A stretch of DNA of 64,000 nt, taken from Amoebophrya sp. A120. Taxonomy: Eukaryota > Protista > Dinoflagellata. Below are positions 1 through 64,000 of the stretch, one piece after another. A program made the position numbers and the translations under genes. The notes beneath the pieces were generated by a model. It was not told the origin of the DNA. It saw nothing but the letters and a program-made list of their open reading frames with translations, and searched no databases. Position 1 is the stretch's first letter. Every line of letters starts with the position of its first letter. Location: assembly GCA_905178155.1 (NCBI GenBank), contig CAJINV010000006.1, positions 4,285,760 through 4,349,759 on the forward strand, read 5' to 3'.

Positions 1-51
1 ACTCTAAAAATATCTGGAGCACATATTAAGCCAATTTTCCCCTGCCGGATA

Positions 52-3000
52 CGCGACGGTGTGACGGCGCAGACGGGGTACCGGGAAAATTTGAAGCAAA
101 ATCTCCCGATTTTGTCTTTCGCGCTGGAGGATTTGGGCGAGGAGAGTTTTTATCAAATGCAAAAATGTCTGGGTCTGGAAGAATGCGAGTTTGTCATGCT
201 TGTCTGGCGTGACTCGACAATCTGTGTTGTATAGGGACGAAAAGGCCCCCTTACCTGTCATGCAAAAACGCAGTTTGCCATGCGGAATACGTAAGACATG
301 GCAGCCAACAAATTTGTCATGCATAGGTGCGCATCTTTGCAGTGCGTTTATCATTCACTTTTAGCATTAGACCCAGACATATTTGCAATCCATAGTTTTC
401 TCACCTCAACACCAGCCTCGGAGCAGCTGCAGCCGTCTTCTTCTGACGACGGAAGAAATATCGTCGGAGATGAAGTTGAGGTGGATCAACATCACCATGA
501 TGGCCATAATCAACATCTGCTAGATGAATATTACCAAACCCCCGCAACTAGAGGTACATCAGCTGCAACTTCTTCTACCCGATTGCAACTCCCGCTGGCT
601 CATTTGGTGCTCTGTGACGAAAGCAGTGCTAAAAGTGGAAGCGCTTCTCCTGCTCGTGCTATCTCTTGCTACCTCGCGCTCAGCTGCGCGGGTGGTTGTG
701 AAAGAAATAATGGGGATCATCTTGTTCACAGCGGAATAAATGACGGCTCTAGAAGAAGAAGTAATGGAGGTGACAGCAGCAGCGGTGCAGAAGCAGATAC
801 GCTCCAGGACAATGACAACGATGGGATTCCGCAGACCGGGTCTTTTCTCTCCGACGACGGCTCTGTATCAATTGCAAATGATATGTCTGGGTCTAGAAAG
901 CTGTGATGCTGTATTGCGCATGACTGCAACGCTTGCAGTTGCAGCCAAGCATGACAAACTTTCGGGCCGCTTTCTGCTGCCCGACGCGCATATACGAGTT
1001 GCGTTATTTTGCGTAACAAGGGAAGGAGCTGCTCACTTGCTGCTCATGCAACACAGGTTTCCCAGGAATGCAAGACACGCATTACAAGTTCCACCTTTAT
1101 TGCAGACCCAGACGTATTTGCAACGCACACTTCGACGACAGCATCGATTTGTCGGCGCAGCACATCTCCTTCGGCAGTCTCGCGGTGTCCGCATTTGAGA
1201 AGCTGGTTTTCAAGCAGAACTATCGAAAAGAAAAATCCCCCCTCCCCATATCAAAACGAAATTTCTGATGCTGGATTTGTGTACACAAATCCGAGCTGTC
1301 TTGCTGGAGAGCACTGCAGGCCCATACCAAGTGCGAGTAGAAGCGTTTTGGCTTAAGCACTTGACATGAAAAACGTCCGCGCTGTAGGCCCAACAGCATG
1401 ACAAACCGTCTGCACAGTGCGGCGGTTGTCTCCGCAGTTGCGTTCTTATGCAAGACAGACACGATTTGTGATCACAAATCAGCATCACAAATTTCCAAAA
1501 ATATACCTTTTCAGTATGGGAAGGGCGGATTTTTCCTTTCAATAAGAACCGGGTAGGGTTTATGCTCCTTACTCGACAAGACGAAGGAACTACATCGAGT
1601 TTCAACGACGAGAACGCGAAGACCAGTCAGTGGGGGCACACACGACCAGGCGCTGTAGTTTCAGTGGCCGAGGAGCACCACCAGGATCTTCCACGTGGTA
1701 CCAGTGGTAGTTCTCCAACCGCGTCTACCGTCGGTATTACCCCCTCATTCGACTTGCAGCAGGAGCAGCAGCCAACAGAAGGACCAAGAACTTTTCACAT
1801 CCCCATCGCGGCGACGCCTTTCGCCGATCCTCGTGGGGAACAGTCACGACCAAAAATGGCAGTCACTCGTCGTCCGTGGCAAGAACAGGTTCAAGGCACA
1901 GGGCAACCTCCTGCTCCTGCTAGTGCTCCGACTTCCACAGGCGGTATGCAAGAAAATAACCGTGTAAAAAGTGTAAGTATAGTGTATCATGATGCAGAAA
2001 GTGCAAAACTGGTACACTTTTCATGCCACGAAGTCCTCTTTTCCTGTAAGTTTTCACGTGCTAGCTGTGCATGACAACTTTCTTTTCTGTCACGCGGAGC
2101 AAGTTTGTTATGCTGTCCTTCCAAGACGCCTACACGGACACATTTTTTTTCTTGGATAAGCGGTGGTTCCAGTGGCCGCGAGGACACCGCCAGCGCGACC
2201 GTATCAAATGCAAAAATGTCTGGGTCTGGAGGATTTCTAAATTTGTCATGCATATTTTGCATGGCCCATGGTGTCTGTGATGCATGCCGTAGCATCACAG
2301 TTTTTTAGAGCGCTTTGTGATACCTCTACCGCATGAGAAATGCCCTCTCCGCGTAGCACAAACTGCAGTCCTCTTGCTGGTCATGCAATACAAATTTTTT
2401 TAGAATCCAGAGACAGCATCACAGGTGTAGAATGTTCCAGACCCAGACATATTTGCATTTGATAGGTCGAAGATCCCTACAAAAGCCTCTTCGATCGGCT
2501 GTTTGGAACGAGCGGGATTAGTAAAAGTTCCGCAGACCATGACCAGGCACCGAGCGACAGCTTCTCCTCCGGAAGGAGCCAAAATGCTGGCTTTAGAAGT
2601 AGTACCAATTACGCCAGCGACGGCGCTTTGGACGAGGAAGAGCCTGTACTAGGTATCAAACAAAAAAGTGTTAGCCTTAGCGGTTTGGGTTTTCACAAAT
2701 GGCAGTCATGCATAATAAAAATTTTGCCTTCCATGCATGCTACGCAATACAACTTTGGGCACCTTTTCTGATGCGTTACTGCATCACCAATTCCGTTAAC
2801 GTTAACACTTTTTCTTGTGATACTAGGACTCGGGCCGCAGCTCTCGTCGAACGTCAACACCCTTGGGCGGCGGAGAACGAATAGGAGGGACGAAGAGGGC
2901 CTGCATCAAACTTCTAGTAGACTAGCCACTGATGATCATATGCAATTACAGAAATCTTCCGTACATCTACATGTACAAAATGCATCACAAATTTCACCAA

Positions 3001-4981
3001 CTTAGAAGAAGCAACTTGTCACGCTGAAAGGGTTATTTCAATGAAAAGTTTGGGATGCAGGAGCTCGATTTGTACTTAGTTGTACGTGTACAGGAAATTT
3101 ACTGTGGATAGACCATACTACGGAAGAAGAAGATGCAAGAATACAACGCTCGCTGTCGCAGTTGCGCAACGATGATTTTGCAACGCTCTTTCCCAAACAC
3201 CTAAACGACTACGGGCTGAGCTCTTGGCGGGTGCTGGTGGTGCAGTATGCTGGCACTGAAAAAGACAGGCAAGAAGGGGGTTTTGTAAAATGCAAAAAGA
3301 AAGACCACTAAGACTACGCGACAGCAAATCAAAATCGATCTTGCGTATACTAAAAAATGGCATGCTGATGAGAGATTTTTCTGTTATATTGTTTTTGCAT
3401 TGCAAAAACTTCAATGTCCTGCCTGCTTTTTTCTGTGCGATACACAGAAGCTGTTCGGGTTTTTTCTCGAGAGAAGAAATAGCAGCCACCGGCGCCTGCA
3501 GCTCGGAGTGTCGGACCACCGGGTGCGACATTATGATCATGGGATGATCAACTTCGCAGACCGCGGCCGTAGAAGCGATCGCACTACTTCGTCTAGGGTT
3601 CCGTCCTTTATACCCCTCGCGGCCGGCCCCGAGATCGACTTCAGGAATCCTATGGAAAGCCTGCAGAAGATGCTGGCGCAGCTGAGTCGGCGGGGCGACG
3701 TCGAGCCGGAATCCACAATAAGTGCGGGGCAGGGCCAAGGCAATGCTAGTCCACCCTCGCCAGAGGTGGTGGACGGGGCTAGAACAACAGTGTTGCCGTC
3801 ACAGAAAGACGACGACGACGAGGATGATGCTGCGAGAGAAACAGAACTCGTCTCGTCCCACGACCCGCCTGTGCTCTACTACACGCGGGGGCACAAAATG
3901 ATCGTGCGAGAGAGCACGAAATTCTGCAGCGCGACGGTTCACTGTGCCGAGGCGCCAAACGGCGTATCAACTGCAAATGTCCCTGGACGTCTGGAAGAGT
4001 GTAAGCTTGTCACGCAGGTGTTCCATGACCCATGAGGTCTGGAATCATGCGGGACCTAGCATGACAGACTCTGATGTGAGGTCTCTGTCATGCCAATCCT
4101 GCATGGGAAACGCCCTCCCAACTTGGTCGAAAGTGGACAGCTTTTGGTACTTTTGCAACACAAATTGAAATTTTTGCATGATTCGGATTTAGCATAACAA
4201 GTTACAACCTTCCAGACCCGGACTACATATTTGCAATGCATACGGCGACGAAATCTACGACGCGACGTTAAATCGGTGCGTTCTATTGCAAGAAAAAAAC
4301 TGTGTAAGTGTAACTTTGTGTTGCAGACGATGCAAGACACTTAGACCTGTCATGCTGGAGATGCATCAGAGGCTCTCTTCGTACGTGTTTTCACGTGCTA
4401 GTTACGCATGACATGTCATGCAGAGCAAACTTGTGATGCTATTCCTCCAAGAAAGTACACACTTACACTGTTTTTTTCTTGCATACTTTCCAATGCCTAT
4501 GGATTGCAAATGTGTCTGGGTCCACCTCTGGAGTAAACTTGTGTTGCTCGCGCTTGCATTGCAGAGTAGCCACTTGTACGGCATACGAGCATGGGAAATC
4601 AGTATGCTGGGGCTCACGGCAGATTCATTCCTAACACGGATGGGAAACTGGCGCCCAGCAGCACAACAAAGATGTAGAAGAAGAACTTGCTCACTCGTAC
4701 TCAGGCACTACTACAGATCTTGTTGTCCATCTCTAGAATTGGAATTCGCATCAGAGCTCCAGACCCAAATATATTTGCAGTGCATGATGCCCTGCGCGCA
4801 GTTGTACTTCTTCGCGACATTCAACGGTGACACGAAGCGCTGCGAGGTACGGGGCAGTGTGTACGTGGTGCTCGGGGTGTCACTTTTTTTGCTCGTTGCG
4901 TTTGAGCTGTTTGGCTACTTCGGAATTTACCGAAAAAGGGTTCTGGGGCACAGGAGCATTGTGAATCAACATGGGAGATAA
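52..4981 (+). CDS. 5'-partial gene for a low-complexity protein with a small Cys-containing domain and a C-terminal transmembrane helix (single-pass membrane protein); 11 introner introns
   Basis: One open frame results after removing elements 151-394, 866-1129, 1221-1544, 1945-2158, 2202-2464, 2654-2822, 2939-3110, 3246-3442, 3965-4242, 4284-4485 and 4498-4786, each plus one 5-bp repeat. It ends ...YDATLNRCVPMPCAQLYFFATFNGDTKRCEVRGSVYVVLGVSLFLLVAFELFGYFGIYRKR...HGR* (TAA 4979-4981). Confidence 0.8.
151..394. mobile_element. Introner family A representative (about 250-290 bp; TIR TAT-N7-AAA(A/T)ATGTCTGGGTCTGG); the most abundant family, more than 30 copies in the window
   Basis: TSD GTTTT/GTTTT. 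Other copies include 2202, 3965, 11415, 11819, 13238, 13535, 15836, 22470, 27768, 32498, 34213, 45863, 53049, 58937 and 60826. Confidence 0.95.
1221..1544. mobile_element. Introner family B representative (about 305-330 bp; TIR TAT-N7-AAAA.TCCCCCCTCCCCATA)
   Basis: TSD AGAAC/AGAAC. Also 12137, 22874, 30652, 36120, 55727, 56513, 58179 and 63930. Confidence 0.9.
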
Positions 4982-10819: not shown

Positions 10820-13800
10820 AATGACGGCTCGGACAACCGTTTCCGTTTCTCCTCCTCGCGAAACCAAAGCGAACGAAGTTCGCGCTGCAGGAGAGAAAGC
10901 AACGCCCTTTCCGGCGGGTGGACCTCATGCTGTGGAAGAAAAAACCACCGTACTTGAGCCGAAAGTTTACGAATTGACACTACCTACAACTGCGTCCGCT
11001 TTCAGCAAGAAAAAATCCGGTGCGAGCTGCAACGACAGCACCAGCAGACCGTACCAAGCCATCCTCCGCGTGTCCAACGTTGGCGCACGGTATAACCTGC
11101 TCAGGTGTTACAATCTCAACCGTTGAAATAGAGTCTGAGACTTGTTTTGCACGATGAGCATGACAGACTCGCAGAGCGTTCCACTTTCTGCAATACAAAT
11201 CTCGCCGGATTGTAGTGGGGTTTGGGGCTCCCGCTGCGGAACTTGTCATGCGCATTTTATGAGAGTTGGCTAGATCATGCGCTCTTGCATTCTATTCGTA
11301 ACGTTTGAAATTGTAACACCTGAGCGAGTTATACACGGATTCTGGACCTTCTAGTGGAAGACAGAAACGGCGACCTGGTGGACGTGGCGGTGGGGCACGA
11401 AGATTTTTTGGAAATATCAAATGCAAATACGTCTGGGTCCTCTGGAAGAGGGCAAACTTCTCATGCAAATTTTCCATGCCCCATGAGGTTTGGAATGCAG
11501 GACCTAGCATGACAGGTTCATCTGCGACATCATCTCTATCATGCCTATCCTGCATGACAAACTGCCTCTAAACTTGTACAAAAGAGGACAGCTTTTGCTA
11601 GTCCTGCAACACAAATTTATGTACGGTCCAGACTTAGCATGACAAGTTCGCGCCATCCCAGACCCAGACATGGTTGCAATGCATAGGAAAAGGCGAAGAA
11701 CCATTTCAGAAGGACTCAGAACCCTCGTACCACGAGAACCGCAGAAGGAGCCACGGCTGGTGGTGCTAGTAGTGGCTCTTCTACAACTTCTACCTCTAAT
11801 TTCGACCTCCACTCCGACTACCAAATGCAAAAATGTCTGGGTCTGGAACTTGTCATGCTGTTTTTGATTCGAGAAAAATTTGTATTGCGTGACCAGCAAG
11901 GGGGTCCAGTTTGTGCTACGCAGACAGGGCATTTCTCATGCGGAAGGTGCATCAGGAAGCCCTCTAAAAGTCTCTGATGCTAGGTCATACATTACAGGCA
12001 CCATGGGCCATGAGAAATATGCATGACAAATCTTGCATCCTTCCAGACCCAGACATATTTGCAATCCATACCGATTACTTTGGCGCAACGTGCGGCCGCG
12101 TCGCGAACCGCATTTTTGAAGGGAAATACCTTGATGTATTGAAAGGAAAAATCCCCCCTCACCATACCGAAAAGGTACACTCTTGGGAAATTTGTGATGC
12201 TGATTTGTGGTCACAAATCGTGTCTGTCTTGCAAGAAGGCAACTCCAGAGACAACCGCCACACTGTGCAGACGATTTGTCATGCTGTTGGGCCTGCAGCG
12301 CGGACGTTTTTCATGCTAAGCGCCTAAGCCCGAACCCTTCTACTCGCCCTTGGTATGGGCCTGCAGTGCTCTCCAGCAAGACAGCGCGGATTTGTGTACA
12401 CAAATTCAATTGAGCATCAGAAGTCTCGTTTTGATTTGGGGAGGGGGGGCGTTTCTTTTGGATATGATGACAGTATGGATTGTCACCGGCCGGAGGTGGT
12501 GGAACTGACGAAGAACGAGGAGCGGGTAGACGAGCGAGCAACAGGGAACGACGAGAGGATGAAAAACCGCCCGCATTACTATTTCGGGCACCTGCACGGG
12601 GGAAAGCGTGGCTTTCACGCCGTGGTTTGGGAAGAAGTGGTGGACGATCACGATTCGCCGGAAACTCAAGAACAGAATGGTCCGTCCTCGTGCCGGACAA
12701 AAATTACCTTCAAGCGTCTGAGCGAGGACGGCGAGGAAGGGTACCCTGTGCAAAAGTATCGTACTCGTATTGCAATCATGCATTTTACAAATCGTTTTGT
12801 TAAGGCAAATCCGCATTATTCTCATGCTGAGGAACTTTGTATTGCATTTCTACGAGTGCGATACATTTGCAAGTCATCAAGGGTACCCGGGGGCGGTGTT
12901 GTGCTTCGTGACCTACGAGTTGGCGGCGGTTACTCATGGAAAGGCCGATGCAGAAGCTTGTCTGAGCGAGATCGAGAAGGATAAAAAGAGCCAGCAAGAA
13001 GAAGAAACAACGAGTAGCGTGGTCAGCGTCTCCATCTCCTACCATGCGGAGCTTGTGAACGACGGTAGAAGAGTATCAACATCTGCTGGCTCAGTGAATT
13101 ATAAGCGGAGAAAGAACAACAAGGAAATCAACCTAAAAACCCCGATCAACCTGACTAACCACATCTTCTTCAACTTGTCCAAAAGCCACGACGAAAGTGT
13201 GCTGGGTCACGAACTGCAGCTGTCGGCGGATACTTACTATCAAGTGCAAAAATGTCTGCGTCTGGAAAAGTGTAAACTTGTCATGCAGATTTTTTATGAT
13301 CCATGAGGTCTGGAATGCAGGACCTAGCGTGACAGACTCCGCGAGGTCTATGCCTATCCTGCATGAGAAAACTCCATCCTAACTTGGTCAAACGTGGACA
13401 GCTTTTGGTACTCATGCAACACAAATTTTTACATGATTCAGATTTACCATGACAAGTTGCCACCTTCCAGACCCAGACACTTCTGCATTTGATACTTACC
13501 TCCCTGTGAATCCGGTCTCCCTCGTGCCGACCGGTATCAAGTACAAATATGTCTGGGTCTGGAAGATCATTGCGAGGTTTGTCATGCTAGTCTGGTGGCA
13601 TAACTCGGGAGTCTGTGAAGATGCATAGACACGAAAAGATCCTCTTACCTGCCATGCGAAAAGAACGCAGTTTGCCATGCGGAAGACGAAACACATTAGC
13701 AGCTCAAAAAACTTGTCATGCGCGGCGGCGTATCTGCCTATAGTTGATTTTTAGCATAATTACATCCTTCCACACCCTCCAGACATATTTGCAATGCATA

Positions 13801-15577: not shown

Positions 15578-16642
15578 ATGTACAATCACCGTAGCGCCCT
15601 TGGTACGCTGAATCAGCAGTCAAAGCTGGTGGACTTGACCCTGAAGCGCGCGGACCGCGGTCGGTACCTCGTGAAGATAAACGAAGACTTGGACGTCATT
15701 TGCAACACCAAATCCTACGCTTACGCCGCAATCGCAAACGCCTCCCCTGCTACTACTTCGCGCCACGGGCCCGCCGGCTACTCGTCCGGTACAGCGACCC
15801 AATCGCGGGCCGAAGCGGAGAGCCGACGAGTCCGGTATCAAGTGCAAAAATGTCTGGGTCTGGGAGAGCCAAACTTGTGATGCTGCATTTGGATGCTAAA
15901 AAAACCTGTAGTGCATGACCAGGAAGAGGATTCAAATTTGGCTACGTGGAGAGGGCATTTGTCATGCTGAATGCGCATAGATAAGCACTCAAAAAATCTG
16001 TGATGCTATGGCATACATCACAGACATCATGGATCATGGAAAATGTGCATGACAAAGTTGTGCTCTTCCAGACCCAGACATTTTTACATTTGATATCCGG
16101 CCCCACGGGGCGATCGCCCGGTGCGAACGGATGCTGGCCAAGTTGCGGAAGATGCACGGGGAAGTGACGCAGAGGATACTATCCTGAGAAGTAAAAGCGT
16201 CCCCATCCAATAATCAAGTTGGCAAATCTGCAACACAAATCTCCGAGTTTTGGCTGTCGAGCATCAAAAGTTTGGGCTCGTAGTCGTGTAGCAGTCCTGT
16301 CTAGCTAGTGCAGCCGCATGACAAATTGACTCTCTTATCCCGCTTCCAGCATGACAAACTCCCAGATAGCATTAGGAAATGACTGTTATGGGGCTCCGCA
16401 TGAGAAAAATTTTGAGCATGCAGATTTGCATTACAGCTATGGAGTGGGGGCGCTTTTACATGGGATAGATACTGCTGTTGGATTTAGACTCTTCATTCTC
16501 GGACCGGAGCCATGGCAGTAGTGGTCACAGCTCCTCTGCGGACCGAAACAAGATTCAGCTCGCGGAAAAGGAATTGCTCGCGAAAATTTATGAGAAAATC
16601 CAAATTGCCGAGAAAGAACTACTGTGCCTGGTGGCGGGGTAG
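15578..16642 (+). CDS. Hypothetical protein (about 170 aa); 2 introner introns
   Basis: The frame stays open after removing 15836-16095 (TSD TCCGG) and 16180-16467 (TSD GATAC). It ends ...KIQIAEKELLCLVAG* (TAG 16640-16642). Confidence 0.7.
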
Positions 16643-51300: not shown

Positions 51301-53461
51301 CTTGTAAAAACTTGTGATGCTATTGCTAGCGCTAGAGGTTCTCGCATGCCAGACCATCTCAGCCATGCAAAAACAGCATGACAATAAACATCTGCCCGCA
51401 TGATCCAGAGGACCACCCGGGGATATTTGCAGGGGATACGTACGTGATGAAGATTCAGCACTCCGAAGACACGACCTCCGTGCAGGACTGGTTTTTCGGG
51501 CAAAGGAAGTCCACGCAGTCGGTCGCCTATCCTGCTGTAAAAGTTGTATTATCCGATCGCACTTCAATGTCCACCTAATTGCAAGAATACTACCTAGCAT
51601 GACAGATCTGTTCTCTACAGGGAAAATAGCATGGCAAATTCTTGTTCTATTTTTCATTGCCGAAACAAAAATTTTGCAATGCAATTTCAGTACATCACTA
51701 CTGATGCGATCGCGATGCTTTTCTGCACCTGCATAGTGCCTGCATCCCGGCCTTCATGCCCATGGACAAGCAGGACGCCAGGCTGGGGAACGTGTTCATC
51801 ATGGGCATGCTATACAAAGAAAAAAGTGTTACAACAGCGACACGTTGTATTATTGCGTATTAAGCAAGACAGACGCGATCTCTTATGCCGGATGTGCATA
51901 GGAGAATGGTTCCCATATGTGTTTTTCCTTCTGATCTCTGCATCGCAGGTTTATTTTTCTGTCATGCGGAGATGACAATTTGTGTTGCTAAATGGAGACC
52001 ACAGGAGGTGTTGTCACTGAAACGCTTTTTCCTGTGATACATGTCGTTCCTCCGCCACTACCGCACCACCTACGTCCGCGCGGTGGGCTCGTGTCTATGA
52101 GGGTGCACAACTCCCCCTCCCCCTCATTTGTATGGCATGAACAGCATCACAAACACCAACACAAGTGGAGCCTGTGCATGACAAGTTTACGCACCGAATG
52201 TAGAAGTCGTGTTTTGGCTTCCGGAATTTGTCATGCAAACACTGCCACAATACATCAACGGCATTTATTGGGGTTTTGCATTACAAATGAGGGGGAGGGG
52301 GGGTTGTGCACTCTCATAGTGTCCACCGAAGATGTACTTCGACGAGGTGGATAACAACTGCAACAAGTATCGCAAGAAAAAACTGTTTCACTGTAAACTT
52401 GTGATGCATAAAATGGAACACAGAAGCATTTGTCTTGCTAAACATGCGAGAAAGTGGATTTTTAGCTGTGTTTTAGATCTCTTGGTGCTTCGGCACTTCG
52501 AGGTTTAGGGTCGGAACGTTCTCAGCACTGCTGAAGCTTAAGAAGAAAGGGGCGTGCACGCCCTGGCCTTCAGTTTGCTCCGCCATTATCTTTTTGACGA
52601 TCGCTTTACAAATCCTCCTTTTTTGCTCTGCCTCTTGTTCCCCGGGCCCAACTGGCACCAAGCAGTTTTTTTCCGGGCTTTTTTTCCGGTCTAGGTTTAG
52701 GTAGGGCCCCACCGCCGCCGGCACGGGATGGCTGTCGTCGCGACCGTCTCACCTACGATCTACGCCTTCTCCTGCTGCACAAGTTCGATCCGGAAAGGGT
52801 TTAGGTTAGGTTTCAGGGTTTAGGATATCCACTTTTAGCTGTGTTTTCCCTTAGGAAGCTCGCATGGTAAATTTTCTCTGTCATGCGGAACAAACTTGTG
52901 ATGCAAAAGTTGCAAAATCCTTACAGTGAAACACTTTTTTCCTGTGATAACAAGGTCGGGGGGAGTGGTAGCGGTGCCGCGGGTGAAAATAAAAGTGAGA
53001 CTACGGGACTCAACAGCGAAGACACCGACATGGCGTTGCTCCACTCGTTATGGATTGCAAATATGTCTGGGTCTGGAAGGTTGCAACTTGTGACGCTGTT
53101 TTTGGATTCTAAAAAGATGTGTATTGCATGAGCAGCAAGAGGAGCCCAGTTTGTGCGACACGGAGAGGACATTTCTCATGCGGAATAGGCATGAGAAAGC
53201 CCTCGGAAAATCTGTGATGCTGAGTCATGCATCAGAGGCATCAGGGGTCATTCAAAATATGCATGGCAAGCCTAGCAATCTTCCAGACCCAGATATATTG
53301 GCATTCGATACTCGTCATCAGAAGTGGAGTCCCGCAGTGACCAGGCAAACAGTGCGGAGCTGCGGCTGAAGAAGATCCAGCGGGAAGTGGTGCACATCGA
53401 TCCGAAGAAAATCCGGATTCCGAATTGGGCGAAAGGGGACGCGAAGGGGATTGTGCTGTGA
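42314..53461 (+). CDS. Secreted pepsin-family (A1) aspartic protease; 18 introner introns and 3 GT-AG introns, one of 3.7 kb
   Basis: Signal peptide, then LKNFQNVQYFGDIGIG, catalytic IYDTGS and IIDSGTS, flap HMFGSG, AIVGLG, FSICL, HWAV and FIMGMPFLRHY. Introners: 42581-42845, 43233-43449, 43496-43760, 43897-44111, 44149-44400, 44453-44672, 44739-45035, 45377-45585, 45863-46124, 46185-46339, 50257-50468, 50663-50887, 51130-51438, 51528-51735, 51811-52039, 52096-52318, 52368-52949, 53049-53310. GT-AG introns: 42969-43150, 45655-45829, 46477-50182. Confidence 0.92.
45377..45585. mobile_element. Introner family H representative (about 205-215 bp; TIR TATCG...GAAAAAACTGTTTCACTGTG)
   Basis: TSD AAAGA/AAAGA. 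Also 33604, 43233, 52368, 60037 and 60350. Confidence 0.9.
46811..47539. mobile_element. Cassette A (729 bp) flanked by a 52-bp direct repeat
   Basis: 46759-46810 is identical to 47540-47591. Contains three 42-bp tandem repeats. Confidence 0.6.
47329..47460 (+). repeat. 42-bp tandem repeat x3 inside cassette A
   Basis: CAGTTCGAACCCC(T/G)CCAGGGGAAAGAAGCTTACTTTTCTCGT at 47329 and 47371, with a diverging third copy at 47413. Confidence 0.9.
47593..48459. mobile_element. Cassette B copy 1 (867 bp) flanked by a 41-bp direct repeat
   Basis: 47552-47592 is identical to 48460-48500. Virtually identical to 48968-49834. Confidence 0.65.
48879..50134 (+). ncRNA. Putative structured ~350-nt module, copy 2, interrupted by cassette B
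   Basis: Same X-R-hairpin-Y order as copy 1 (X 48879, Y 50058-50134). Confidence 0.45.
48968..49834. mobile_element. Cassette B copy 2 (867 bp) flanked by a 41-bp direct repeat
   Basis: Only one difference from copy 1 was noticed (A48305 vs T49680). Confidence 0.65.
50257..50468. mobile_element. Introner family D representative (about 200-215 bp; TIR TAT..AAGAAAAAAACTGTGTAAGTGTA)
   Basis: TSD TCTGT/TCTGT. Also 1945, 4284, 43897 and 56151. Confidence 0.9.
52096..52318. mobile_element. Introner family F representative (about 215-240 bp; TIR TATGAGAGTGCACAACTCCCCCTCCCCCTCATTTG)
   Basis: TSD GTGTC/GTGTC. Also 14593, 21273, 44453 and 50663. Confidence 0.9.
52475..52832. other. 358-bp foreign insert with degenerate TTTAGGG-like repeats inside family H introner 52368-52949
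   Basis: Flanked by the 15-bp duplication TTTTAGCTGTGTTTT (52460-52474 and 52833-52847). GGTTTAGG(G) motifs at about 52502, 52693 and 52797-52824. Confidence 0.75.
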
Positions 53462-53628
53462 TGAACCACACGATTGTTCGGAACAGAAATTTGTGTTGCG
53501 TTTCCTGAACTACAGGCGAGGACAGCAGGCGTAACTACGATTTTTACTGGTTAAATTGAATGAGGAGGTGGCGCTGGCGACACGGAATGGCGCGCTCCAC
53601 TTCCCAGAATTACCGGTACCTACAGCGG

Positions 53629-53907
53629 TATCCTGAGCAAAAATGTACCCACCCCAGAGTTGTCATGCAGATTTGCAGCTACAGGGAGATTTGTAATGCG
53701 CATCCACATGAGAGGCGTTTCCAATCGCGTTTTGCGCTTTGTAATGCTGTCGACAGGATGAGAAGATGGATTTGTGTTGCGGCTGTACTTGCTAAACTGC
53801 ACTACAATACAGAGACGAACTTGTCATGCTGGACCCCCAAAACTTCTCGATTTGTGTTGCGAGATCCCCAGCTTGACTCTGGTGTGGGGACGTTTTTACA
53901 TAGAATA
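53629..53907. mobile_element. Family E element about 170 bp downstream of the protease stop codon (probable 3' UTR)
   Basis: TSD AGCGG/AGCGG and family E TIRs. Confidence 0.85.
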
Positions 53908-55091: not shown

Positions 55092-58000
55092 ATGTCGTCC
55101 TTCTTCATCACCGAGCAAGAGCCTAATTCCGCCGACGAGGCGCACACCGCCGGCGGACACGAAGGCGGCAATTCTACTCCAGAAGACTACGAAGACCATG
55201 CACGGCAAGACCTCTCCACGCCAGAAGAAATAAATCCGAGAAATAACCAGAACAACAAGCAGCTCGCGACCATAAATCAACCGACCAAACCGAAGACCAA
55301 CAAGAACAAGCTCCCCGCCGAGCACGCCAATGTGAAACAGGGCACTTCGTTCTGGGTCGCCGAGCCGTCGCTGATTTGCCGCGCCGGGCCGGAGTTGGAA
55401 ACCCCCGAAACCTCGGATCCATGTGGGCGAAACCGGATCGTGTACTGCGCGGGGAAGTTGGTGCAACTCCCGAACGGCATCGTCCGAATGCCGATCACGA
55501 AAACGGACGACAGGCTCCACGAGAAGTTGTCGAATTTGCAGCGGCAGAAGTTGGTCCACTGGGTGACGTTGGACGCTTCGTCTGTCGACTATGAACAGGA
55601 AGAACCCATTCCCATCCATTTTTTGCATGACAAACAAAGGATTTTGATACGTGTTTTGCATGACAAATTGGATGGGGACGGGTTTTTTTCTGTGGATATC
55701 GATTGGCGGAAAAAGCACATGCTGGTTATCAAAGTGAAAAAAGCCCCCACCCCATATCGGAAACGGAAGATGCGCGAATTTGTGATGCTGTATTTGAGTA
55801 CTTACACAAATCGACTTGTATTGCTAGAAGGCCAAGAGCCAAAGCTGTAGCCTAAATTGCAGGTAATCTTCTGTCATGCTGTTTCCCACTTCCAGTTGCC
55901 TCCTGTCATCCTGGAGCTGCAAGGCTTTCCCACGCTAGACAGCGCTACAGTCTGCATCTTTTGCCTTCTAGCATTACAGAGCTGATTTGTGACCACAAAT
56001 CTGCATCACAGATTTCCGTTTTGATATGGGGAGGGGGCATTTTTAATTGTAATACTGGTCGAAGTGGGAGACGAGTTGCTGTTCTTCAAGGTCTTTCTCA
56101 TGCAGAAGTACGCAGCAAAAGATACAGCAGCTTCCAACGCGGGCACACCTTATCCAAGGAAAAAAGTGTGTAAGTGTAACTTTTTTGCAGGAACAGCATC
56201 ACAGATTTGTTTTGCATGACAGAGAAAACCTGCCATGCGTAGCTAGTACGCGAAAACACGTATGAAAATAGCCTGTGATGCACATCCAGCATGACAAGTG
56301 TAGCTGTATTGCAACATCTGCAACACAAAGTTACACTTACACAGTTTTTTTCTTGCATACACCTGCGGGCGGGTTCAGTGCGGACGGGGGAGCTGAGCAG
56401 GATCTAGATCTGTTGAAGCAGTCCTCTTTGTCCACCTCTGCATGGTACGCGTTTTATCGGGATATGGACCGGAATAACAACAACCTCGTCTCCATGATCG
56501 AATTCGAAGCGGTATTGTGAGGAAAAATCTTTCCTCCCCATATTGAAAGCGCATCCATCTTCTGGAAACTTGTGATGCAGATTTGTGAACACAAGTCGCG
56601 TCTGTCTTGCAAGAGGGCAAGTGCAGGCTGTCCGGCACGTTATGCAGGCGATTTGTAATGCTGCAAGCCCTACAGGGCAGCCGTCTGCCATGCTAGGCGC
56701 CTACACCAAAAGGCCCCGCCCTAGGGTTGCGATCTGACTGCGTGCAGTGCTCTACTGCAACACGGATTTGATTTGTGTACTCAAATACAGCATCACAAAT
56801 TTCTTTGTCGATATGGGGAGGGGGGATCTTTCCTTCTGATAAGCGGGGTTGCTTTCTTTAAAATACCCCGACGAATCCACGGACGCGTCGAGTCGGAAGA
56901 ATATCCTGTGCAAAAGTACCGTACGCGTAGTAATTGCAAGCATGGATGACAGGGTAAATCCGCGCTACAAATTGTTCCATGTGTCATGCTGAGCCAAGTT
57001 GTATATGCAATTTCTAGTATTATTACCTAGGTAGTGCGATGCTTTTGCAATGCATAAAGAGAAGGAAGAAGCTACTCCAGTTGTTAGATAAGGACGGCTC
57101 CGGCGAGCTGACATTTGAGGAATTCGGGCAGGTCCTCGGGTTCAGCGAAAAGGAAATCTACAAGGCAAAGGATGACTACCAGAAGAAAAACCTCGGGAAA
57201 GACGTATGCAATGTAAAAGCATCGTACTAGTATGAATTGCATTACAAATTAGCCCAGCATTACAAATTGAATTTGTAATGCTGATTCACCTTGAGAAAGA
57301 AATTTGTAATGCATGCATGCAATTACTACGAATACGATGTTGCTTTTGCTCAGGATAAGACGGGGTGAATCGCAATATCCGGTGGAGCGCGACGGAAGAA
57401 TTTGATTTCCACGCGAGAATCAAAGAGTACGGCAGGAGGTCCCGGAGCACCACGCCGTCGCAGCGGCACTTATCCTGAGTAAAAGCCCCACACCCCATAG
57501 TCAAGTTGGGAAACCTGCAATACAAATCAACAAGCTTTGGCTGTTGCCCATCACAGGTTTTGGCTTGCAATGTGATCGCGTTTAGCTAGCGCAGCTGCGT
57601 CACAAATCTAGCATCTTATGCTGATACGAGCATCACAAATTTCAAAACAGCACTAGAGATGAATGCGTCCTCTCATGGGGCTCCTCCGCATGAGAAACAT
57701 TTTAAGCATGCAGATTTGCATGACAAGAACTAAGTAAGTATGGGGTGTGACGTTTTTCCTCAGGATAGCACTCGAAGAAGATCTACACGGACGAATCCGT
57801 GCGGAAAAATATTACAGTGAAAAATGCCCCCACACGTCCGAAAGTTGCAATAATTTGTGATGCGAAGTTTCCAAATGAAAACTTTTTGTCATGCGTGAAA
57901 GAACTATGAGTCTTACCTTTCTGATGCAGAGTCTAGTCGTATACAGCATCGCTTGCACCATCACAAGAGCTGCTCTTGCTGGGATCTTTTGCAATGCAAA

Positions 58001-61000
58001 TCTTTGCTATTCACGATTGAAGATCTGTGATGCTGATACATGCAAGAGAGCGAGTGTTTCCTTTGGAAAGGTTTGCAATACAAATGCTTGAAGTTCATCT
58101 GGGGTGGGGGCATCTTTCATTGTCATAAAAAAGCACATGCGCATGATCTCTGCCAGCGACATGTCGCCGGTGCCGCTGTATTGTGAGGAAAAATCCCCCC
58201 TCCCCACAGTGCTCAAAACGGAAATCTGTATTGCTGATTTGTGACCACAGATCGTCTCTCTCTTGCAAGAAGGCAACTACGTCAGAGGTGTCCGTCGCAC
58301 TGCGCGGCGGATTTCTGATGCTGTTGGACCTTCATGGCAGCCGTCTAGCATGCGAAACAGAGACTATACGCAAACAGCCCCAGCACAACTCAGGCTTGCA
58401 ACCTGCCTGCGATTCCATCCTGCAAGACAAAGCGAATTCGTGGACACCAATCCAGCAACAGAAATTTCCGTTTCAAGATGGGGACGAGGGATTTTTCATT
58501 TTCATAGGCTCCTGCCGGGTGGTCGGGTGTCGAAATCAGCTTCTTCAAGTAGGTCGAGAACGAATTTGAGCTCCGCGGGAACGGGAACAAACAAGTCCAT
58601 GACGAACCAGTCCTTGACAGACGAATCAACGCAGCAGGGCGGTGGAACGACGTTGCAAGACCACGCTTTTCCCGAAATGGAGCAGCAAGACGGGCGGGGA
58701 ACGAACTATATATGCAATGCAAAAGCATCGTGCTCGTATAAATGCATTACAAATTTCCTCTGCGTGGTGAGAAATAAAATCTGTAATGCGGATTTACCTT
58801 GCCAAAGAAATTTGTAACGCATGATTGCAATTACTACGACTACGAGTACGAGTACGATAGTTTTGCACAGCATACTACAATCGGTTTAGCAACGACAACA
58901 TGCAACAGGGGCAGCAAAGTGCTGGACAGCATAGTCTATCAAATGTAAAAATGTCTGGGTCTGGAAGAATGCATGTTTGTCATGCTTGTCTGGCATGACT
59001 CTTGAATCTGTCATGCAAGTTACCCAAGAGCCCCATTTTTCTGTGATGCAGAAGCGCACTTTGTCATGCAGAATAGGCAACACCTGGAAGCTCAGAAACT
59101 TGTGATGCTGAGCCAGCATTTCTGGCCTCATCATGAGACGCCACCCAGCATCACAAGTTTCCAGACCCAGACATTTTTACATTTGATATAGTCAACATAT
59201 GAAGAAATCCAGCTCTGCAGGGACCACAAATTCAGCTCCTATCAAACGCAAAAATGTCTGGGTCTGGAAGGATGCGAACTTGTGATGCATACTTGGATCA
59301 CACAAAAATCTGTCATGCTTAGACAGCAAAGGGAGCTTGCTCCTTTTCCTGTCGCCGAAAGAAGATGCTTGTCATGCGGATTAAGCATTGCGAAACTGTC
59401 TCAAAACCTGCGATGCTAGGCCTTGCATGGCACACCTTCTGTGTCAAGCAGACACAGCATCACAAACCTCAGCAACCTTCCAGACCCGGATATTTTTGCA
59501 ATGTATAGCTCCTTCGACGAGACAACAACAGCTGAGTTCCGCTGGCGGCGGAGCGAACAGTGCAACTACCGGGAATAATGCGATGGAGCTCATTCCCTTG
59601 CAGGAAGACCAGCAGATGACAATGATCTCCGAGACAACGACAATTATCAACCGGTCCGCAACTATGGAACTGTCAGGATCGAAATCAACAAAATCGAAAT
59701 AATTTGTGATGCATAAAATAGATACCAGTTGGAGCCTCAGTTTCCAAGTGGCGCATGACAAATTTCAGGAGCTGCACCAAAATCCAGTCTGTCATGCTGT
59801 TTGGGCAAAGAAGGCTGCTCCTGTCGTGCTACTCTGGCAGCACATCGCCTTCCCCTAAACAGGCTTGCATCGGTCTCATTTGCCTGCTCCCCAACACAGG
59901 CCTTACTTGCCCAACATTTTATGCATTACAAAACTTTTCGAATTTATCGCTTTCGATCCTGACACATCCATAGCAACCGCACCGACCAAAACTACTGCCG
60001 AAGAGCCGCCAAAGGAATTCGACTACGCCGCTTTTGTATCGCAAGAAAAAACTGTTCCACTGTGAACTTGTGATGCATAAAATGGAAGATTGAACTATTT
60101 GTCTTGCTACTTCTGCAAGGCATCGGATTTTTAAGCGTGTTTTCCCTATGGGAAATGCGCGCACGGCATGTGTAACAAACTTGTGATGCAGATCTTGCAA
60201 AATGAAAATTATCACAGTGAAGCAGTTTTTTCGTGGGATAGTTTAAGAAGAAGCAGCAAGCACCAAGCACTGCGCCAACAACGCTAACCGACACGAAAAA
60301 CCAGAACAATCCAGGGTTCAGTCGGAAGTCCCACATTGTTGACCACCCATATCGTACGAAAAAAGTGTTTCACTGAAAGGATTTTGCAAGTTTTGCATCA
60401 CAAGTTTGTTCTGCATGACAGAGAAAATTTGCCCTGCGAGATTTCCAAGGGAAAGCACCGCTAAAGATCCATTGTCTTGCATGTGTGGCAAGACAAACAC
60501 TTCTGAGATACATTTTCTGCATTACAAGTTCACAGTGAAACAGTTTTTTCTTGCGATAACCCGAAACGGTGGACCAATCGGTACGGGCACGTGGATCCGA
60601 AAACGCCGAAGCAGTTTCGCGACTCGTTTGACGGATTCGGGTTGTTTTCTACGGAGCATTTGATCATGCAACAGGAGTGGAAGATCCCGCCCGGTACGGG
60701 GGAGGACGACTTTTCCCAATCGAAATGGCGATCGTCCGGTGCACCGCCCAATTGGGTCGACCCGAAGAAGGCGCTGCAGAAGAAGAAGGACAACATGATC
60801 ATCGAAATGAAACTGTTCCGGGATTTATCAACTTCAAATATGTCTGGGTCTGGAAACTTGTAATGCTGAGCTGTGAGAAGCAAGTAGTGAATTCTCTGTA
60901 ATGCACAGCCAAGCATGAGAAATCTTTGCGCTGCTTAGTGTTACGCTTTCCGCATGACAAAGTGCGTTTTGCATGACAAGCAAGAAGGTCTCTTCTTGGA

Positions 61001-64000
61001 CACGCATCACAAACTCTTCCGTCATGCCAAGCAAGCATGACAAACCTTGCATCCATCCCGACCCAGACATATTTGCAATGCATAGGATTTTCTGGAGTCC
61101 AAATACGGGGCGTACGGCTATGAAGGGATGGAGCGGATTATCCTGAGGCAAAACGATCCCACCCCATAGTCAAGATGGGAAATCTGCTACACAAATCCCT
61201 AAGCTTTGGCTGTCGCGCATGACAAATTTGGGCTTGCAATGTACTTTCGTGTTTAGCTTGTGCAGCAGCGTACCAGATCCAGTTTGTCATGCTGATTCGA
61301 GCATGACAAATCTCACAGCACCACCGGGAAACGCCTCTCATCCTCATGGGTCTCCGCAAGAGAAACACTTCAAGCATGCAGATTTGCATTACAACTCTGG
61401 GGTGGGGACGTTTTCGCACAGGATACGGATCTTCAAAATGATGGACACGAACAGCTCTGTATCAAATGCAAATATGTCTGGGTCTGGAAGGATGCAACTT
61501 GTGATGCTGCCTTTGGACTCTACATAAAATCTGTATTGCGTGAACAGCACAAGAGGTGTAATTTGTGCTACGCGTATGGCGGACGCAGAAACTTTTCTTC
61601 AAGAAACTTTTTTTTTTTACCCATGACCTCGGCCTGTGCATGATAGGCCTTGCAACTTTATATAACGGGTTTACGAAGGGAGTAGCAAGCCCTGCCACGG
61701 CTCATGCCAAGCCAATCGCGTAAGCACTTGCGAAGACGCTTCAGCAGCAACAGGTGCTGCGGGCTTTTGGTGTTCCGCTAGTCTTGGTCCCGTGTCCCTT
61801 TCATTCCCGCACGCCAGCGCCCGTCTTAATCGGGCTTGATGCTACCGGGGCACGCGCCTTCTTGCGCAGCACACGCTGTGCGGAGGCCACCTTCTGTGTT
61901 TCACCGAAGGAGCTGACAAGTGCGCCGCCTGAGGTCGCCATCCCCCTTCGAACGTATTCTGGCGACCCTTAGGGAGGGTAAAATACGGCCCAAATAGCGT
62001 TCTCAAGTGCGGGAAGGCTTCTGCGCCGTTTCCGGAAGCAACGTCGCGGAGAAGGGCGCTGCCGGCCCTTGGCCAATCTGCCAGAACCCAGCGCGACGCC
62101 GGCGACCGTGCGCATAGACAAACCAACCCGCACGAACGGCGCCTCTTGCGCAGAGTTGCCTCGTAGCTCGAAGATGTCCGACCTCGTCTTGAGGAGACAC
62201 GCCGAAAACACCAGAGGGGGGCCCCTCGGAGGGGGGTTGGGGGGGTGGGTTGCGCGACCCCCCCTGCGTCCATCATACCATGCGGGCTAGCAAAAAAAGG
62301 GGGTCCCGAAGGGGGGGGGGTTTACTCCCCCCCTCCGGGGCCCCTCGAGCCGGCATTTTTGCGCTGCCCAAAAGGATTTCCCGTTGTCTGCGTTGCCGCC
62401 AGGCCGGGCGAAAGACCTGGGGGCTTAGGGCAGTGTGGGGAAGCCCGGCGGAAGAAAGCCCACTGCGCGCGGGGCTCTGCGAGGTTTTTCTCGTTCTAAG
62501 CTAGAGCGCCTCCACGCCGCTAAACCTCGGCGGGGCCCCGCAGAACAGCAGCAGAGAAGATTCAAAGCAACGCCCGTCCTTTCCTCTGTTTCGGGGGTAG
62601 TGAGGTGATGCGCCCAAGCCATGACAGCCCGTCGGCACCTCTCACACTGCTAACGCGTAGCTTTGGTGGCACGAGGAGCCGGCGATAGTGCCTGCTCTCA
62701 CAGTAGCCATCACCCCCTGCGGCAGGACCCTCGCCGCACGCACAGACCCTGAGAGGCCGCTTTCCAATTGGTCGCCGAATGCCTGAGCGGCTCAGACTGT
62801 TCGTCCTGGGTTCTCTTTCTAAGCCGGAGTCAAGGAATGGCTGCGCTAGCGGTTAAGCCGTCCTATCAAGAGGGGGCCGGCGGCAGGCGAGCAAAAATCG
62901 ACGGTAGGGCCCGCGCTTGGTATTAGGATGCACAGCTATGGGCAAAAAAAAAAGTTTTTTGAAAAAAAGTTTCTGCGTCCGCCATAACGTGGAGAGGAGA
63001 TTTCTCAAGCGTTATGAGCATCAGAAAGCCCTCGCAAAATCTCTGATGCTGGGGCATGCATCACAGACCTCATGGGTCATGCAAAATCTGCATGACAAAC
63101 AACTGCACTCGCCCAGACCCAGACATTTTTGCAATCCATAGTCCGACCGGTTGGGCGTTTCCGCGTTTACCGCGGCCTTGCAATCGACTCTGAAGTACCC
63201 CGACGATGGCTCGATTTCCTTCAACGCACAGAGAAGACGGGTGAATCTGTTTCTCATCATGGATTTGGACGGAATGGGGAGCTTGGATCGGTACAGAGTT
63301 GTACTACAGTTTTGTTTCAGTATCTTGTTGTGATCATGTAGTTGTCATTCTGCAACGCAAATCGCTTTTCGTTTGCGTTTCCCGCATGACAAATTCATCT
63401 AGCCTCGATGATTAAAAAAAAGGTACGAATTCTGCCGTGGTTTGACCCAGCAGCTGGACGCCGGAGTGAATCTGGACGAGAAATTATTGCAATGAAAAAT
63501 GCCCCCACCCCGGAACTTGGGAGCATTTGTATTGCAAACCTTTCCAAAGGAAACACTCGCCCTCTTGCATGTATCAGCGTCGCAGATTTTCAATCGTGAA
63601 TAGCAAAAATTTGTATTGCAAAAGATCCCAGCAAGAGCGGCGCTTGTCATGCAAGCGGCGCTTTATACGACAAGACTCTGCATCATGAGAAAGATTCATA
63701 GTGCTTTCATGCATGGCAAAAAGTTTTCATTTGGAAACTTCGCGTCACAAACTACTGCAAAATTCGGGGTGGGGGCATTTTTCACTGTGATAGAAATTCA
63801 CCCGCCGCCTCCAGCGGTGGGGTAACGAGAAATCGAAGTGGGTTTTGCTGGCGAAGGGGGCGAAAAATTTGAAAAAACCACCGCGGAAAACGTGGCACGA
63901 TTCTTTGTCCATCGTGAAGCCCGAGAACCTATTGAGAGGAAAAATCCCCCTTCCCCATATTGAAGAGGCATCTTTTCGAAAATTGATGTTGCTGATTTGA
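55092..64000 (+). CDS. 3'-partial EF-hand calcium-binding protein (two EF-hand pairs); 20 introner introns and 1 GT-AG intron within the window
   Basis: EF loops DRNNNNLVSMIEF, DKDGSGELTFEEF, DTNSSDRLGVSAF (degenerate) and DLDGMGSLDRYEF appear after splicing. Elements removed: 55590-55698, 55727-56054, 56151-56359, 56513-56841, 56902-57056, 57205-57357, 57471-57767, 57810-58127, 58179-58506, 58711-58874, 58937-59188, 59240-59507, 59663-59972, 60037-60240, 60350-60558, 60826-61084, 61139-61425, 61460-63140, 63485-63792. GT-AG intron 63291-63422. A further element starts at 63930. Confidence 0.85.
61575..62986. mobile_element. 1.4-kb non-autonomous TIR DNA element nested inside family A introner 61460-63140
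   Basis: About 50-bp TIRs TATGGCGGACGCAGAAACTTTT...CCCAT and TSD ACGCG/ACGTG. It splits the family A internal sequence CTACGCGGAGAGG. The interior is GC-rich with no credible ORF. Confidence 0.9.

What the first reader, a model, noticed from the sequence alone, without database searches (positions are those of the whole stretch)
151..63792. About 90 TAT...ATA elements whose removal with one 5-bp repeat precisely restores genes
Seen: at least 8 multi-copy and about 10 rare TIR families share TAT/ATA termini, usually an A-run at positions 11-14, and a 5-bp flanking direct repeat of free sequence. Removing the element plus one repeat rebuilds conserved motifs exactly (e.g. GAR|ILDL, SD|YFGATCGR, EEG|YPG, GM|PFLRHY). 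Most junctions offer no GT-AG. Established: TIR- and direct-repeat-bounded non-canonical introners are described in Amoebophrya, but I know of no resolved excision mechanism. Inference: one shared end rule implies a single mobilising or excising machinery serving many families.
Basis: partly seen in the sequence, partly recalled or inferred. Interest (0 to 1): 0.75.

Follow-up and report, generated by a model that had tools for sequence, protein, structure and literature searches.

The report
Transposon-born introns with a fixed cut
About 88 small transposon copies interrupt the genes here and, where transcript-type data could be checked, are cut out precisely although they lack the usual GT-AG signals; they match the published Amoebophrya A120 introners, but the data add that the cut likely always falls 1 base before and 4 bases after the element, probably made by a relaxed spliceosome.

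Summary
I count 83 curated TAT…ATA elements (35% of the window) plus 5 degenerate, nested or cut-off ones, in 8 multi-copy families; 59 of 83 have an exact 5-bp flanking repeat. RNA-like contigs remove element+5 nt at 29 elements (14 single joints, 15 by summed length), in both element orientations for 7 of 8 families. The end rule is already in print: Farhat 2021 gives 'TAT, seven variable nt, at least 3 A' for Amoebophrya A120 introners, and Gozashti 2025 lists one A120 family as Ginger with 5-bp TSD and TA/TA termini.

What those papers left open is the splice position. Nine elements with imperfect repeats bound it; the only register that fits all nine is intron = N-TAT…ATA-NNNN (1 nt before the element, 4 nt after). 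In that register 1 of 83 is GT-AG. Across 223 elements, +2 T and -7 A are almost invariant while their mirror positions vary (Fisher p=0.001). This points to a direction-reading machine, most likely a spliceosome with a branch A at -7 (inferred; no lariat data). No transposase was found. Known system, new and testable splice rule.

The parts
151..2822 (+). Six elements in an unlabelled gene running off the window start: 151-394, 866-1129 (degenerate 3' end ACA, repeat 3/5), 1221-1544, 1945-2158, 2202-2464, 2654-2822 (the only GT-AG in the 1/4 register, repeat CTAGG)
   Evidence: Removal gives 498 aa without a stop over 1-3002; ends and repeats
3965..4786 (+). Three elements: 3965-4242, 4284-4485, 4498-4786 (3' end ATG)
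   Evidence: 302-aa frame 3289-4978 across all three
11091..14808 (+). Nine elements in an aldose 1-epimerase gene (frame 10743-14848): 11091-11333, 11415-11685, 11819-12070 (5' TAC), 12137-12464, 12742-12878 (5' TAC, 3' ATC), 13238-13494, 13535-13800, 14267-14545, 14593-14808
   Evidence: 604 aa without a stop; PF01263 on one exon; no RNA laid here
15836..16467 (+). Two elements: 15836-16095, 16180-16467
   Evidence: 182-aa frame 15536-16639
19062..21514 (.). Five elements with exact 5-bp repeats, gene model not resolved: 19062-19263, 19967-20270, 20489-20799, 20856-21004, 21273-21514
22470..23424 (+). Three elements: 22470-22721, 22874-23178, 23231-23424 (repeat 3/5)
   Evidence: Open frame after removal
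26546..36755 (+). Twenty elements in a 2175-aa frame (25354-37163): 26546-26804, 27768-28031, 28228-28563, 28636-28907, 28965-29216, 30355-30609, 30652-30977, 31802-32080, 32134-32283, 32498-32760, 33023-33283, 33329-33473, 33604-33812, 33904-34160, 34213-34463, 34591-34862, 35453-35716, 35787-36080, 36120-36428, 36489-36755
   Evidence: last four removed with 20 extra nt in contigs of X3 and X4 (158 letters expected, 158 seen)
36488..36759 (+). Informative intron: repeat ATTTT/GCCAT; the transcript keeps positions 1-4 of the first copy (0-1 nt of the first copy inside the intron)
   Evidence: Piece starts at 36760 in X3 and X4, analysed
42581..46339 (+). Nine elements in the 5' part of an aspartic protease gene: 42581-42845, 43233-43449, 43496-43760, 43897-44111, 44149-44400, 44453-44672, 45377-45585, 45863-46124, 46185-46339; plus degenerate 44771-45035 inside a predicted GT-AG intron 44735-45045
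   Evidence: one contig of DNA-like run X1 spans 43420-44486 with three elements intact
50257..53907 (+). Nine elements in the 3' part of the aspartic protease gene, each removed with 5 extra nt: 50257-50468, 50663-50887, 51130-51438, 51528-51735, 51811-52039, 52096-52318, 52368-52949, 53049-53310, 53629-53907
   Evidence: Nine joints, eight in 4 of 4 runs and one in 3 of 4; PF00026
50662..50891 (+). Informative intron CT..GG: repeat ACGAC/AAGGC, 0-1 nt of the first copy inside the intron
   Evidence: Joint 50661-50892, 1 ambiguous letter
51810..52043 (+). Informative intron CT..TG: repeat CATGC/CATGT, last letter in the transcript comes from the second copy (at least 1 nt of the first copy inside the intron)
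   Evidence: Joint 51805-52040, 4 ambiguous letters
55590..64000 (+). Twenty elements in a gene with EF-hand-like motifs (label by eye, recalled, no call): 55590-55698, 55727-56054, 56151-56359, 56513-56841, 56902-57056, 57205-57357, 57471-57767, 57810-58127, 58179-58506, 58711-58874, 58937-59188, 59240-59507, 59663-59972, 60037-60240, 60350-60558, 60826-61084, 61139-61425, 61460-63140, 63485-63792, and 63930- (cut by the window edge)
   Evidence: 756 aa without a stop to 63289; five single joints, and summed lengths 652/652 and 412/412 in X8 contig 12
61575..62986 (.). Nested 1412-bp TAT…ATA element with 43-bp TIR (95%), repeat ACGCG/ACGTG, inside 61460-63140; no coding hit
   Evidence: 0 Pfam hits in 11 ORFs tested of 15 listed
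63291..63422 (+). Ordinary GT-AG intron in the same transcript; shows that the laid contigs are spliced products
   Evidence: Joint 63289-63422 in 3 of 4 runs

Best explanation
These are short non-coding transposon copies, with the ends published for Amoebophrya A120 introners, that are removed from transcript-type sequences with exactly one 5-bp repeat's worth of extra sequence, likely at a fixed position and likely by a relaxed spliceosome. Step 1, insertion (inferred): a DDE transposase, probably integrase-like, recognises TAT-N7-AAA ends and inserts copies in either orientation at nearly any site, duplicating 5 bp (shown: ends, 5-bp repeat of free sequence, both orientations; enzyme not found). 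Step 2, removal (shown for 29 elements in contigs of one sample): element plus 5 nt leaves the transcript, so the protein is unchanged. Step 3, register (bounded by 9 elements; single register inferred): the intron starts 1 nt before TAT and ends 4 nt after ATA. Step 4, chemistry (inferred): the left end N-U-A-U serves as a GUA-like donor with a free first base, the first A of the terminal AUA (-7) serves as branch point, and the 3' cut is measured 6 nt downstream of it with no AG needed. Because both ends carry the same motif, either orientation supplies both signals.
For: Joints: 14 of the 15 listed skip element+5, the other is a GT-AG intron. Summed lengths match for 15 more elements (158/158, 652/652, 412/412). 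Register: three elements allow only 0-1 nt of the first copy in the intron (50663, 58711, 36489), four need at least 1 (51811, 55590, 58179, 60350), two allow up to 3 or 4 (51528, 31802); only 1 fits all. Farhat Table S4: all nine commonest A120 non-canonical classes have T second (GT, CT, AT, TT), as this register predicts; here the 5' pairs are GT 27, CT 25, TT 16, AT 15 of 83. Strand asymmetry with a detector blind to TAT: TIR position 1 varies at 1 5' end and 9 3' ends, position 3 at 8 5' ends and 1 3' end, n=223; same direction in the window (0/5, 2/0 of 61) and in the loci (1/4, 6/1 of 162); Fisher p=0.001. So +2 U and -7 A are kept and their mirrors are not. The one +2 exception reads GCAT and the one +3 exception GTGT, both with G at +1. 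Fixed short branch-to-3' distances exist: 2 nt in Yarrowia, 3 in C. guilliermondii, 4 in Trichomonas and Giardia (PMC2483917); -7 equals the 3-nt class. A120 has U2, U4, U5, U6 and 83 of 89 spliceosomal proteins, U1 undetected. No excess of G-U over A-C mismatches in the TIRs (245 vs 221 over positions 4-30, n=189), so no sign of selection on RNA pairing.
Against: No lariat, branch point or protein was tested. No single element pins the register; it rests on assuming one register. All four RNA-like runs are one sample, are contigs, and 'RNA' is the tool's guess; 15 joints were not shown. Only the A-U at -7/-6 is constant; upstream letters fit a U2 branch consensus poorly (G 44, C 30 of 83 at -8), and the last two intron bases are free (16 of 16 pairs seen). 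The asymmetry rests on 19 variant ends, 150 of 312 locus elements had no strand call, and both exceptions sit in L002, whose strand I confirmed as called. TIR ends pair in 78 of 81 predicted folds, which would hide the -7 A. No transposase: 0 hits in 123 locus ORFs and in the window's long elements; Farhat argues against general transposase mobilisation in A120. A bias seen in the window (intronic -4 letter is G in 9 of 11 mismatches) did not repeat in the loci (2 of 7; 3 of 6). The organism is inferred from the motif and family lengths, not from a marker gene.
Confidence: 0.6

Rival explanations
1. Same elements and register, but removal is by a spliceosome-independent nuclease and ligase guided by the TIR hairpin (1-nt 5' and 4-nt 3' overhang), as proposed for euglenid nonconventional introns.
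For: Ends pair in 78 of 81 predicted folds; works in both orientations; first and last two intron bases are nearly free; U1 undetected in A120. Euglenid introns have a similar offset stem (CA at +4/+5 with TG at -7/-6; PMC3935182) and leave as circles (review PMC11282704).
Against: No G-U over A-C excess in the TIRs. Position 3 tolerates a C-A mismatch at the 5' end (7 TAC ends) but almost never a change of the -7 A, so base identity matters more than pairing. TIR positions 4 and 7 pair in only 45% and 42%. The kept +2 U, +3 A match spliceosomal donors (recalled).
Confidence: 0.25
2. The spliceosome removes them, but with a branch point further inside and a variable register within the 5-bp repeat; the 1/4 rule is an average, not a ruler.
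For: Published annotation calls the positions variable or unknown (Farhat Fig. 3 legend) and gives mixed calls per family (Gozashti supplement 8). Each informative element here allows 2-5 registers.
Against: Three of three elements with a mismatch at position 4 give 0-1 and four of four informative ones with a mismatch at position 5 give at least 1. Every listed joint removes exactly 5, never 2 or 8, even where ATAG offers an AG three bases earlier (51528). Published variability is expected from aligner ambiguity in perfect repeats.
Confidence: 0.12
3. The elements are excised from DNA (like ciliate internal eliminated sequences or by precise transposase excision) and the joined contigs come from rearranged DNA.
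For: TA-type ends and direct repeats recall eliminated sequences (recalled); the runs' RNA status is a guess; X1's joint table was cut (1092 rows not shown).
Against: The same contigs also skip a GT-AG intron. DNA-like run X1 has an unbroken contig over three elements with no differences. End conservation depends on gene direction, which a DNA enzyme acting on a symmetric element would not need.
Confidence: 0.03

Closest known systems
Amoebophrya sp. A120 introner elements (Farhat et al. 2021, PMC7789003)
   Same: IR motif 'TAT, seven less-conserved nt, at least three A'; 3-5-nt direct repeats; mean non-canonical intron 240 nt; many families; no internal transposase; top splice classes all N-T.
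   Different: The paper leaves the border 'unknown' or 'variable' and the repeat length 3-5 nt. Here the repeat is uniformly 5, the register 1/4, both orientations are removed, and ends show strand-dependent conservation. Its Figs 3 and S19-S25 could not be seen.
A120 introner families of Gozashti et al. 2025 (PMC12130899), fam38 in particular
   Same: TIR elements of about 106, 149, 209, 252-260 and 305 bp, matching family sizes here (109, 145-164, 202-212, 244-272, 305-329); fam38 (about 810 bp) labelled Ginger, 5-bp TSD, TA/TA termini.
   Different: Automated TSD calls range 2-6 bp and splice calls differ by family (41 of 58 rows seen). No sequence comparison was possible; no integrase-like ORF found here.
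Ginger DNA transposons (integrase-type DDE transposase; PMC2836005, search listing only)
   Same: Cut-and-paste TIR elements; a 5-bp duplication is typical of Copia/Gypsy-type integrases (recalled).
   Different: Ginger ends are TGT..ACA (recalled); Gozashti's text says fam38 lacks the expected Ginger termini and TSDs. No transposase seen here.
Fritillaria borealis non-canonical MITE-derived introns
   Same: TIR/TSD-derived, mostly non-GT-AG, removed by a modified U2 spliceosome (review; preprint 10.1101/2025.08.15.670264).
   Different: Mainly AG-AC and AG-AT ends, U1 present, duplicated U2AF; here +1 and the last four bases are free.
Euglenid nonconventional introns
   Same: TIR stem offset from both splice sites, longer on the 3' side; direct repeats blur the junction; MITE origin proposed.
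   Different: CAG/CTG at +4..+6, purine/pyrimidine junction rule, circular products; here TAT at +2..+4 and ATA at -7..-5.
Fixed branch-to-3' distance introns (Yarrowia, C. guilliermondii, Trichomonas, Giardia; PMC2483917)
   Same: A ruler from branch A to the 3' cut, no pyrimidine tract; -7 equals the 3-nt class.
   Different: They keep a strong ACTAAC and a terminal AG; these elements have neither.

Membership tests
Amoebophrya A120-type introner elements | IR starting TAT, seven variable nt, then at least three A | tested here: met
   End profile, against the text
Amoebophrya A120-type introner elements | 3-5-nt direct repeat at the borders | tested here: met
   5 bp exact in 59 of 83; 266 of 353 in loci
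Amoebophrya A120-type introner elements | Repeated families, no internal transposase | tested here: met
   8 multi-copy families, 61-93% identical inside; no Pfam hit in the longest element
Amoebophrya A120-type introner elements | Removed from transcripts at non-canonical sites | tested here: met
   29 elements in RNA-like contigs of one sample; 1 of 83 GT-AG
Amoebophrya A120-type introner elements | Host is Amoebophrya; sequence identity to published families | not tested
   No marker gene or published consensus compared; no Rfam hit in the window. Inferred from motif, family lengths, GC 44-55% per 2 kb and one-strand gene order
MITE (non-autonomous class II element) | Short, TIR-bounded, fixed TSD, either orientation, high copy | tested here: met
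   summed depth in X1 up to about 200,000 in element-rich bins against about 30 in element-free bins, a rough sign only
MITE (non-autonomous class II element) | Empty site with a single copy of the 5-mer in a relative | not testable with these tools
   No orthologous locus among the printed hits; run X10 laid only 7 reads
Ginger superfamily | Integrase-type DDE transposase in an autonomous partner | tested here: inconclusive
   0 of 123 ORFs of at least 230 aa in 148 loci; no genome held
Ginger superfamily | TGT..ACA termini (recalled) | tested here: not met
   TAT..ATA; TGT at 1 of 223 5' ends and ACA at 866-1129
Spliceosomal intron | GT/GC-AG or AT-AC termini | tested here: not met
   1 of 83 GT-AG in the window, 3 of 116 in loci
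Spliceosomal intron | Invariant +2 U and an invariant candidate branch A | tested here: met
   +2 T in 222 of 223, -7 A in 222 of 223; branch role untested
Spliceosomal intron | Lariat intermediate, snRNP dependence | not testable with these tools
   Contigs cannot show lariats
Euglenid-type nonconventional intron | Removal depends on a terminal RNA stem | tested here: inconclusive
   Stem predicted in 78 of 81; no G-U over A-C excess

The most novel reading that the evidence does not exclude
The splicing machinery of this lineage has been rebuilt around a transposon end. It reads only N-U-A at the 5' side and an A-U seven bases from the 3' cut, with no G+1, no AG and apparently no U1. Any insertion of any TAT..ATA element, at any site and in either orientation, is then born as a perfect intron, and the 1+4 offsets sum exactly to the transposase's 5-bp duplication. 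Strain A25 (TTA ends, TT-NN sites in Table S4) would be the same rule with a different offset.
Probability: 0.5. Interest if true: 0.8.

Novelty: already known. Interest (0 to 1): 0.5.

Why it matters
The elements are known, but how they are removed has been open since 2021, partly because the repeat hides the splice sites. A fixed 1/4 register gives exact intron ends for some 30,000 A120 introns, would correct their annotation, and names one base (-7 A) and one dinucleotide (+2 U, +3 A) to test. If the spliceosome is responsible, it shows the G+1 and AG rules can both be dropped when a ruler sets the 3' cut, and explains how one transposon group filled coding exons at no cost to the proteins.

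Tried and rejected
1) No genome is held, so no genome-wide logo or search for an autonomous element.
2) ORF length as a test of how much is removed: fixes it only modulo 3.
3) Laying DNA-like run X1 with RNA-like runs swamped the joint table with false TIR-to-TIR joints; only the piece table was usable.
4) Raw RNA run X10 (same species label) laid 7 reads, with the one listed loose end at an element start: nothing on splicing. No listed holder is on record as RNA.
5) G bias at intron position -4: 9 of 11 in the window, not repeated in loci; dropped.
6) Use of the AG in ATAG as acceptor (removal of 2 extra nt): rejected at 51528, and by summed lengths at 36489, 58179, 60037.
7) G-U wobble test for RNA pairing: no signal.
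8) Transposase search: none in 123 locus ORFs, the nested 1.4-kb element or the 3.7-kb intron; five longer locus elements (457-972 bp) have no frame over 137 aa.
9) Rfam: 0 matches in the window.
10) One length check (51125-53309, 609 vs 342) was mis-windowed, leaving out an element ending at 53310; the six joints there are listed singly, so it was not used.
11) Earlier findings of this scan: none.
12) Roy et al. 2023 (Curr Biol) is not held.
Full report
Observation. A scan for TAT..ATA pairs showed a clear excess with strong TIRs and an exact 5-bp flanking repeat: 50 pairs with TIR match of at least 11/16 against 0 in each of 5 shuffles, and none extends to 6 bp. Hand pairing of end hits, gap searches and one RNA joint gave 83 elements (22.5 kb, 35% of the window), plus 866-1129, 23231-23424, 44771-45035, nested 61575-62986 and 63930-. 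Repeats are exact in 59, 4/5 in 16 and weaker in 8. The curated list was partly chosen on the repeat; a detector that ignores it for pairs under 450 bp finds 48 of 66 exact. The end profile is TAT, seven variable bases, AAA(A). Clustering on interiors gives 8 multi-copy families (65 elements) and 18 singletons, and every multi-copy family occurs in both orientations with no inconsistent edge.

Genes. All long frames after removal are on the + strand: 2175 aa over 20 elements, 756 aa over 18, 604 aa over 9, 498 aa over 6. Intron phases are even (7/7/6 and 8/6/4 in the two longest genes). In locus L069 removal of a 972-bp element rebuilds the RPB1 stretch GTIA|AQSVGEPATQMTLNTFH (motif recognised from memory).

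Transcript test. One search listed 12 runs. In one search two RNA-like contigs bridge four elements with 158 letters, the number expected if each loses 5 extra nt, while a contig of DNA-like run X1 spans three elements intact. In one search (four RNA-like runs, one sample) 14 of 15 listed joints skip element+5 and one is a GT-AG intron; 15 further joints were not shown. Summed lengths add 11 elements (652/652, 412/412). In all 29 elements are supported, 14 singly. Seven of 8 families have removed copies in both orientations.

Register. A perfect repeat hides the cut; an imperfect one bounds it. Counting k as the number of first-copy letters inside the intron: 50663, 58711 and 36489 allow k=0-1; 51811, 55590 and 60350 need k of 1-5; 58179 needs 1-4; 51528 allows 0-3; 31802 allows 0-4. 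Four of these are read from joints and five from piece ends, assuming the tool's leftmost placement seen at perfect repeats. Only k=1 fits all. The intron is therefore N-TAT…ATA-NNNN if there is one register. Its 5' pair is GT 27, CT 25, TT 16, AT 15; its 3' pair takes all 16 values; 1 of 83 is GT-AG.

Second data set. A TIR pattern scan of metagenome contigs returned 148 loci (498 kb with overlaps, GC 49%); the 78 listed all come from one assembly. 77 of 83 window elements have a relative there (67-96% identity), and 266 of 353 detected elements have an exact 5-bp repeat. With a detector blind to the first three bases and strands called from frames (162 called, 150 not), TIR position 1 varies at 1 5' end and 9 3' ends, position 3 at 8 and 1, pooled with the window (n=223; Fisher p=0.001). 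Since elements insert both ways, this asymmetry must arise after insertion and follows gene direction: +2 U and -7 A are kept. Against: counts are small, both exceptions are in L002 whose strand holds, and a G bias at -4 seen in the window failed to repeat. G-U does not exceed A-C among TIR mismatches.

Mechanism. Insertion by a DDE transposase is inferred; none was found. For removal I favour the spliceosome (0.6): a GUA-like donor with free +1, a branch A at -7, and a ruler to the 3' cut. Fixed branch distances of this size are known, a tunicate spliceosome handles comparable MITE introns, and A120 keeps U2, U4, U5, U6 but apparently not U1. A hairpin-guided nuclease/ligase as in euglenids stays possible (0.25). 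Variable register (0.12) and DNA excision (0.03) are less likely.

What is known, and what I saw of it. Farhat 2021 (PMC7789003): passages, sections 10, 11, 12, 16, part 1 of 2 of section 13, and supplement parts 2-3 of 5; figures not visible. It gives the same end motif for A120, 29,850 repeated introns, and calls the border unknown; Table S4's nine top A120 classes all have T second. Gozashti 2025 (PMC12130899): passages and 41 of 58 A120 rows of supplement 8; files 13-14 not searched. Review PMC11282704: passages and section 6. PMC12005148, PMC11453091, PMC2483917, PMC3935182: passages. Preprint 10.1101/2025.08.15.670264: abstract and section 14. PMC2836005: listing only. Five searches found no statement of a fixed 1/4 register, removal in both orientations or a branch point for these introns. 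Unseen figures (Farhat Figs 3, S19-S25), the remaining supplement rows and Roy 2023 (not held) may already show part of it.

Verdict. The feature is real and already described; the organism is inferred, not shown. The added value is a precise, testable splice rule. Interest 0.5.

Noticed in passing
window 46477-50182: A 3.7-kb GT-AG intron in the aspartic protease gene (loose end at 50183 in X6 and X8 matches the exon before 46477). It holds a 1237-bp stretch twice (93%) and a 41-91-bp motif five times; no Pfam hit in the ORFs tested. Could be a tandem retro-element remnant or an assembly duplication.
   Followed up: partly
window 61575-62986: A 1412-bp TAT..ATA element with 43-bp TIRs nested in another; the host element (1681 bp) still appears to be removed, since contigs carry joints on both sides at the same depth. 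GC-rich interior, no relative in the 148 loci.
   Followed up: partly
window 52368-52949: A 209-bp-family element enlarged to 582 bp by an insert with GGGTTTAGG and TTTAGGG telomere-like words; still removed exactly.
   Followed up: partly
window 44735-45045: Predicted GT-AG intron that contains a decayed element (44771-45035, shifted 4-bp repeat); ends seem to decay when the element need not serve as an intron. No RNA joint seen.
   Followed up: partly
window 63291-63422 and 46477-50182: The two ordinary introns end in A-rich stretches (GATTAAAAAAAAG, AAAAGACCTCCAG) with no pyrimidine tract.
   Followed up: no
window 39123-40784 (+): A 554-aa DUF285 (PF03382) frame with no element, beside genes with one element per 0.3-0.6 kb.
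   Followed up: no
window element interiors, e.g. 4285-4485: Many families carry repeated internal GCATGACA / GCATCACA words, possibly transposase-binding sites.
   Followed up: no
run X10 on window 45863: An RNA run with the same species label lays only 7 reads here, yet has this element's end beside other flanks, so a divergent strain likely carries the same family.
   Followed up: no
L002 1359-1507 and L017 3263-3529: The only 5' ends that change +2 or +3 read GCAT and GTGT, both with G at +1, as if a canonical G compensates.
   Followed up: no
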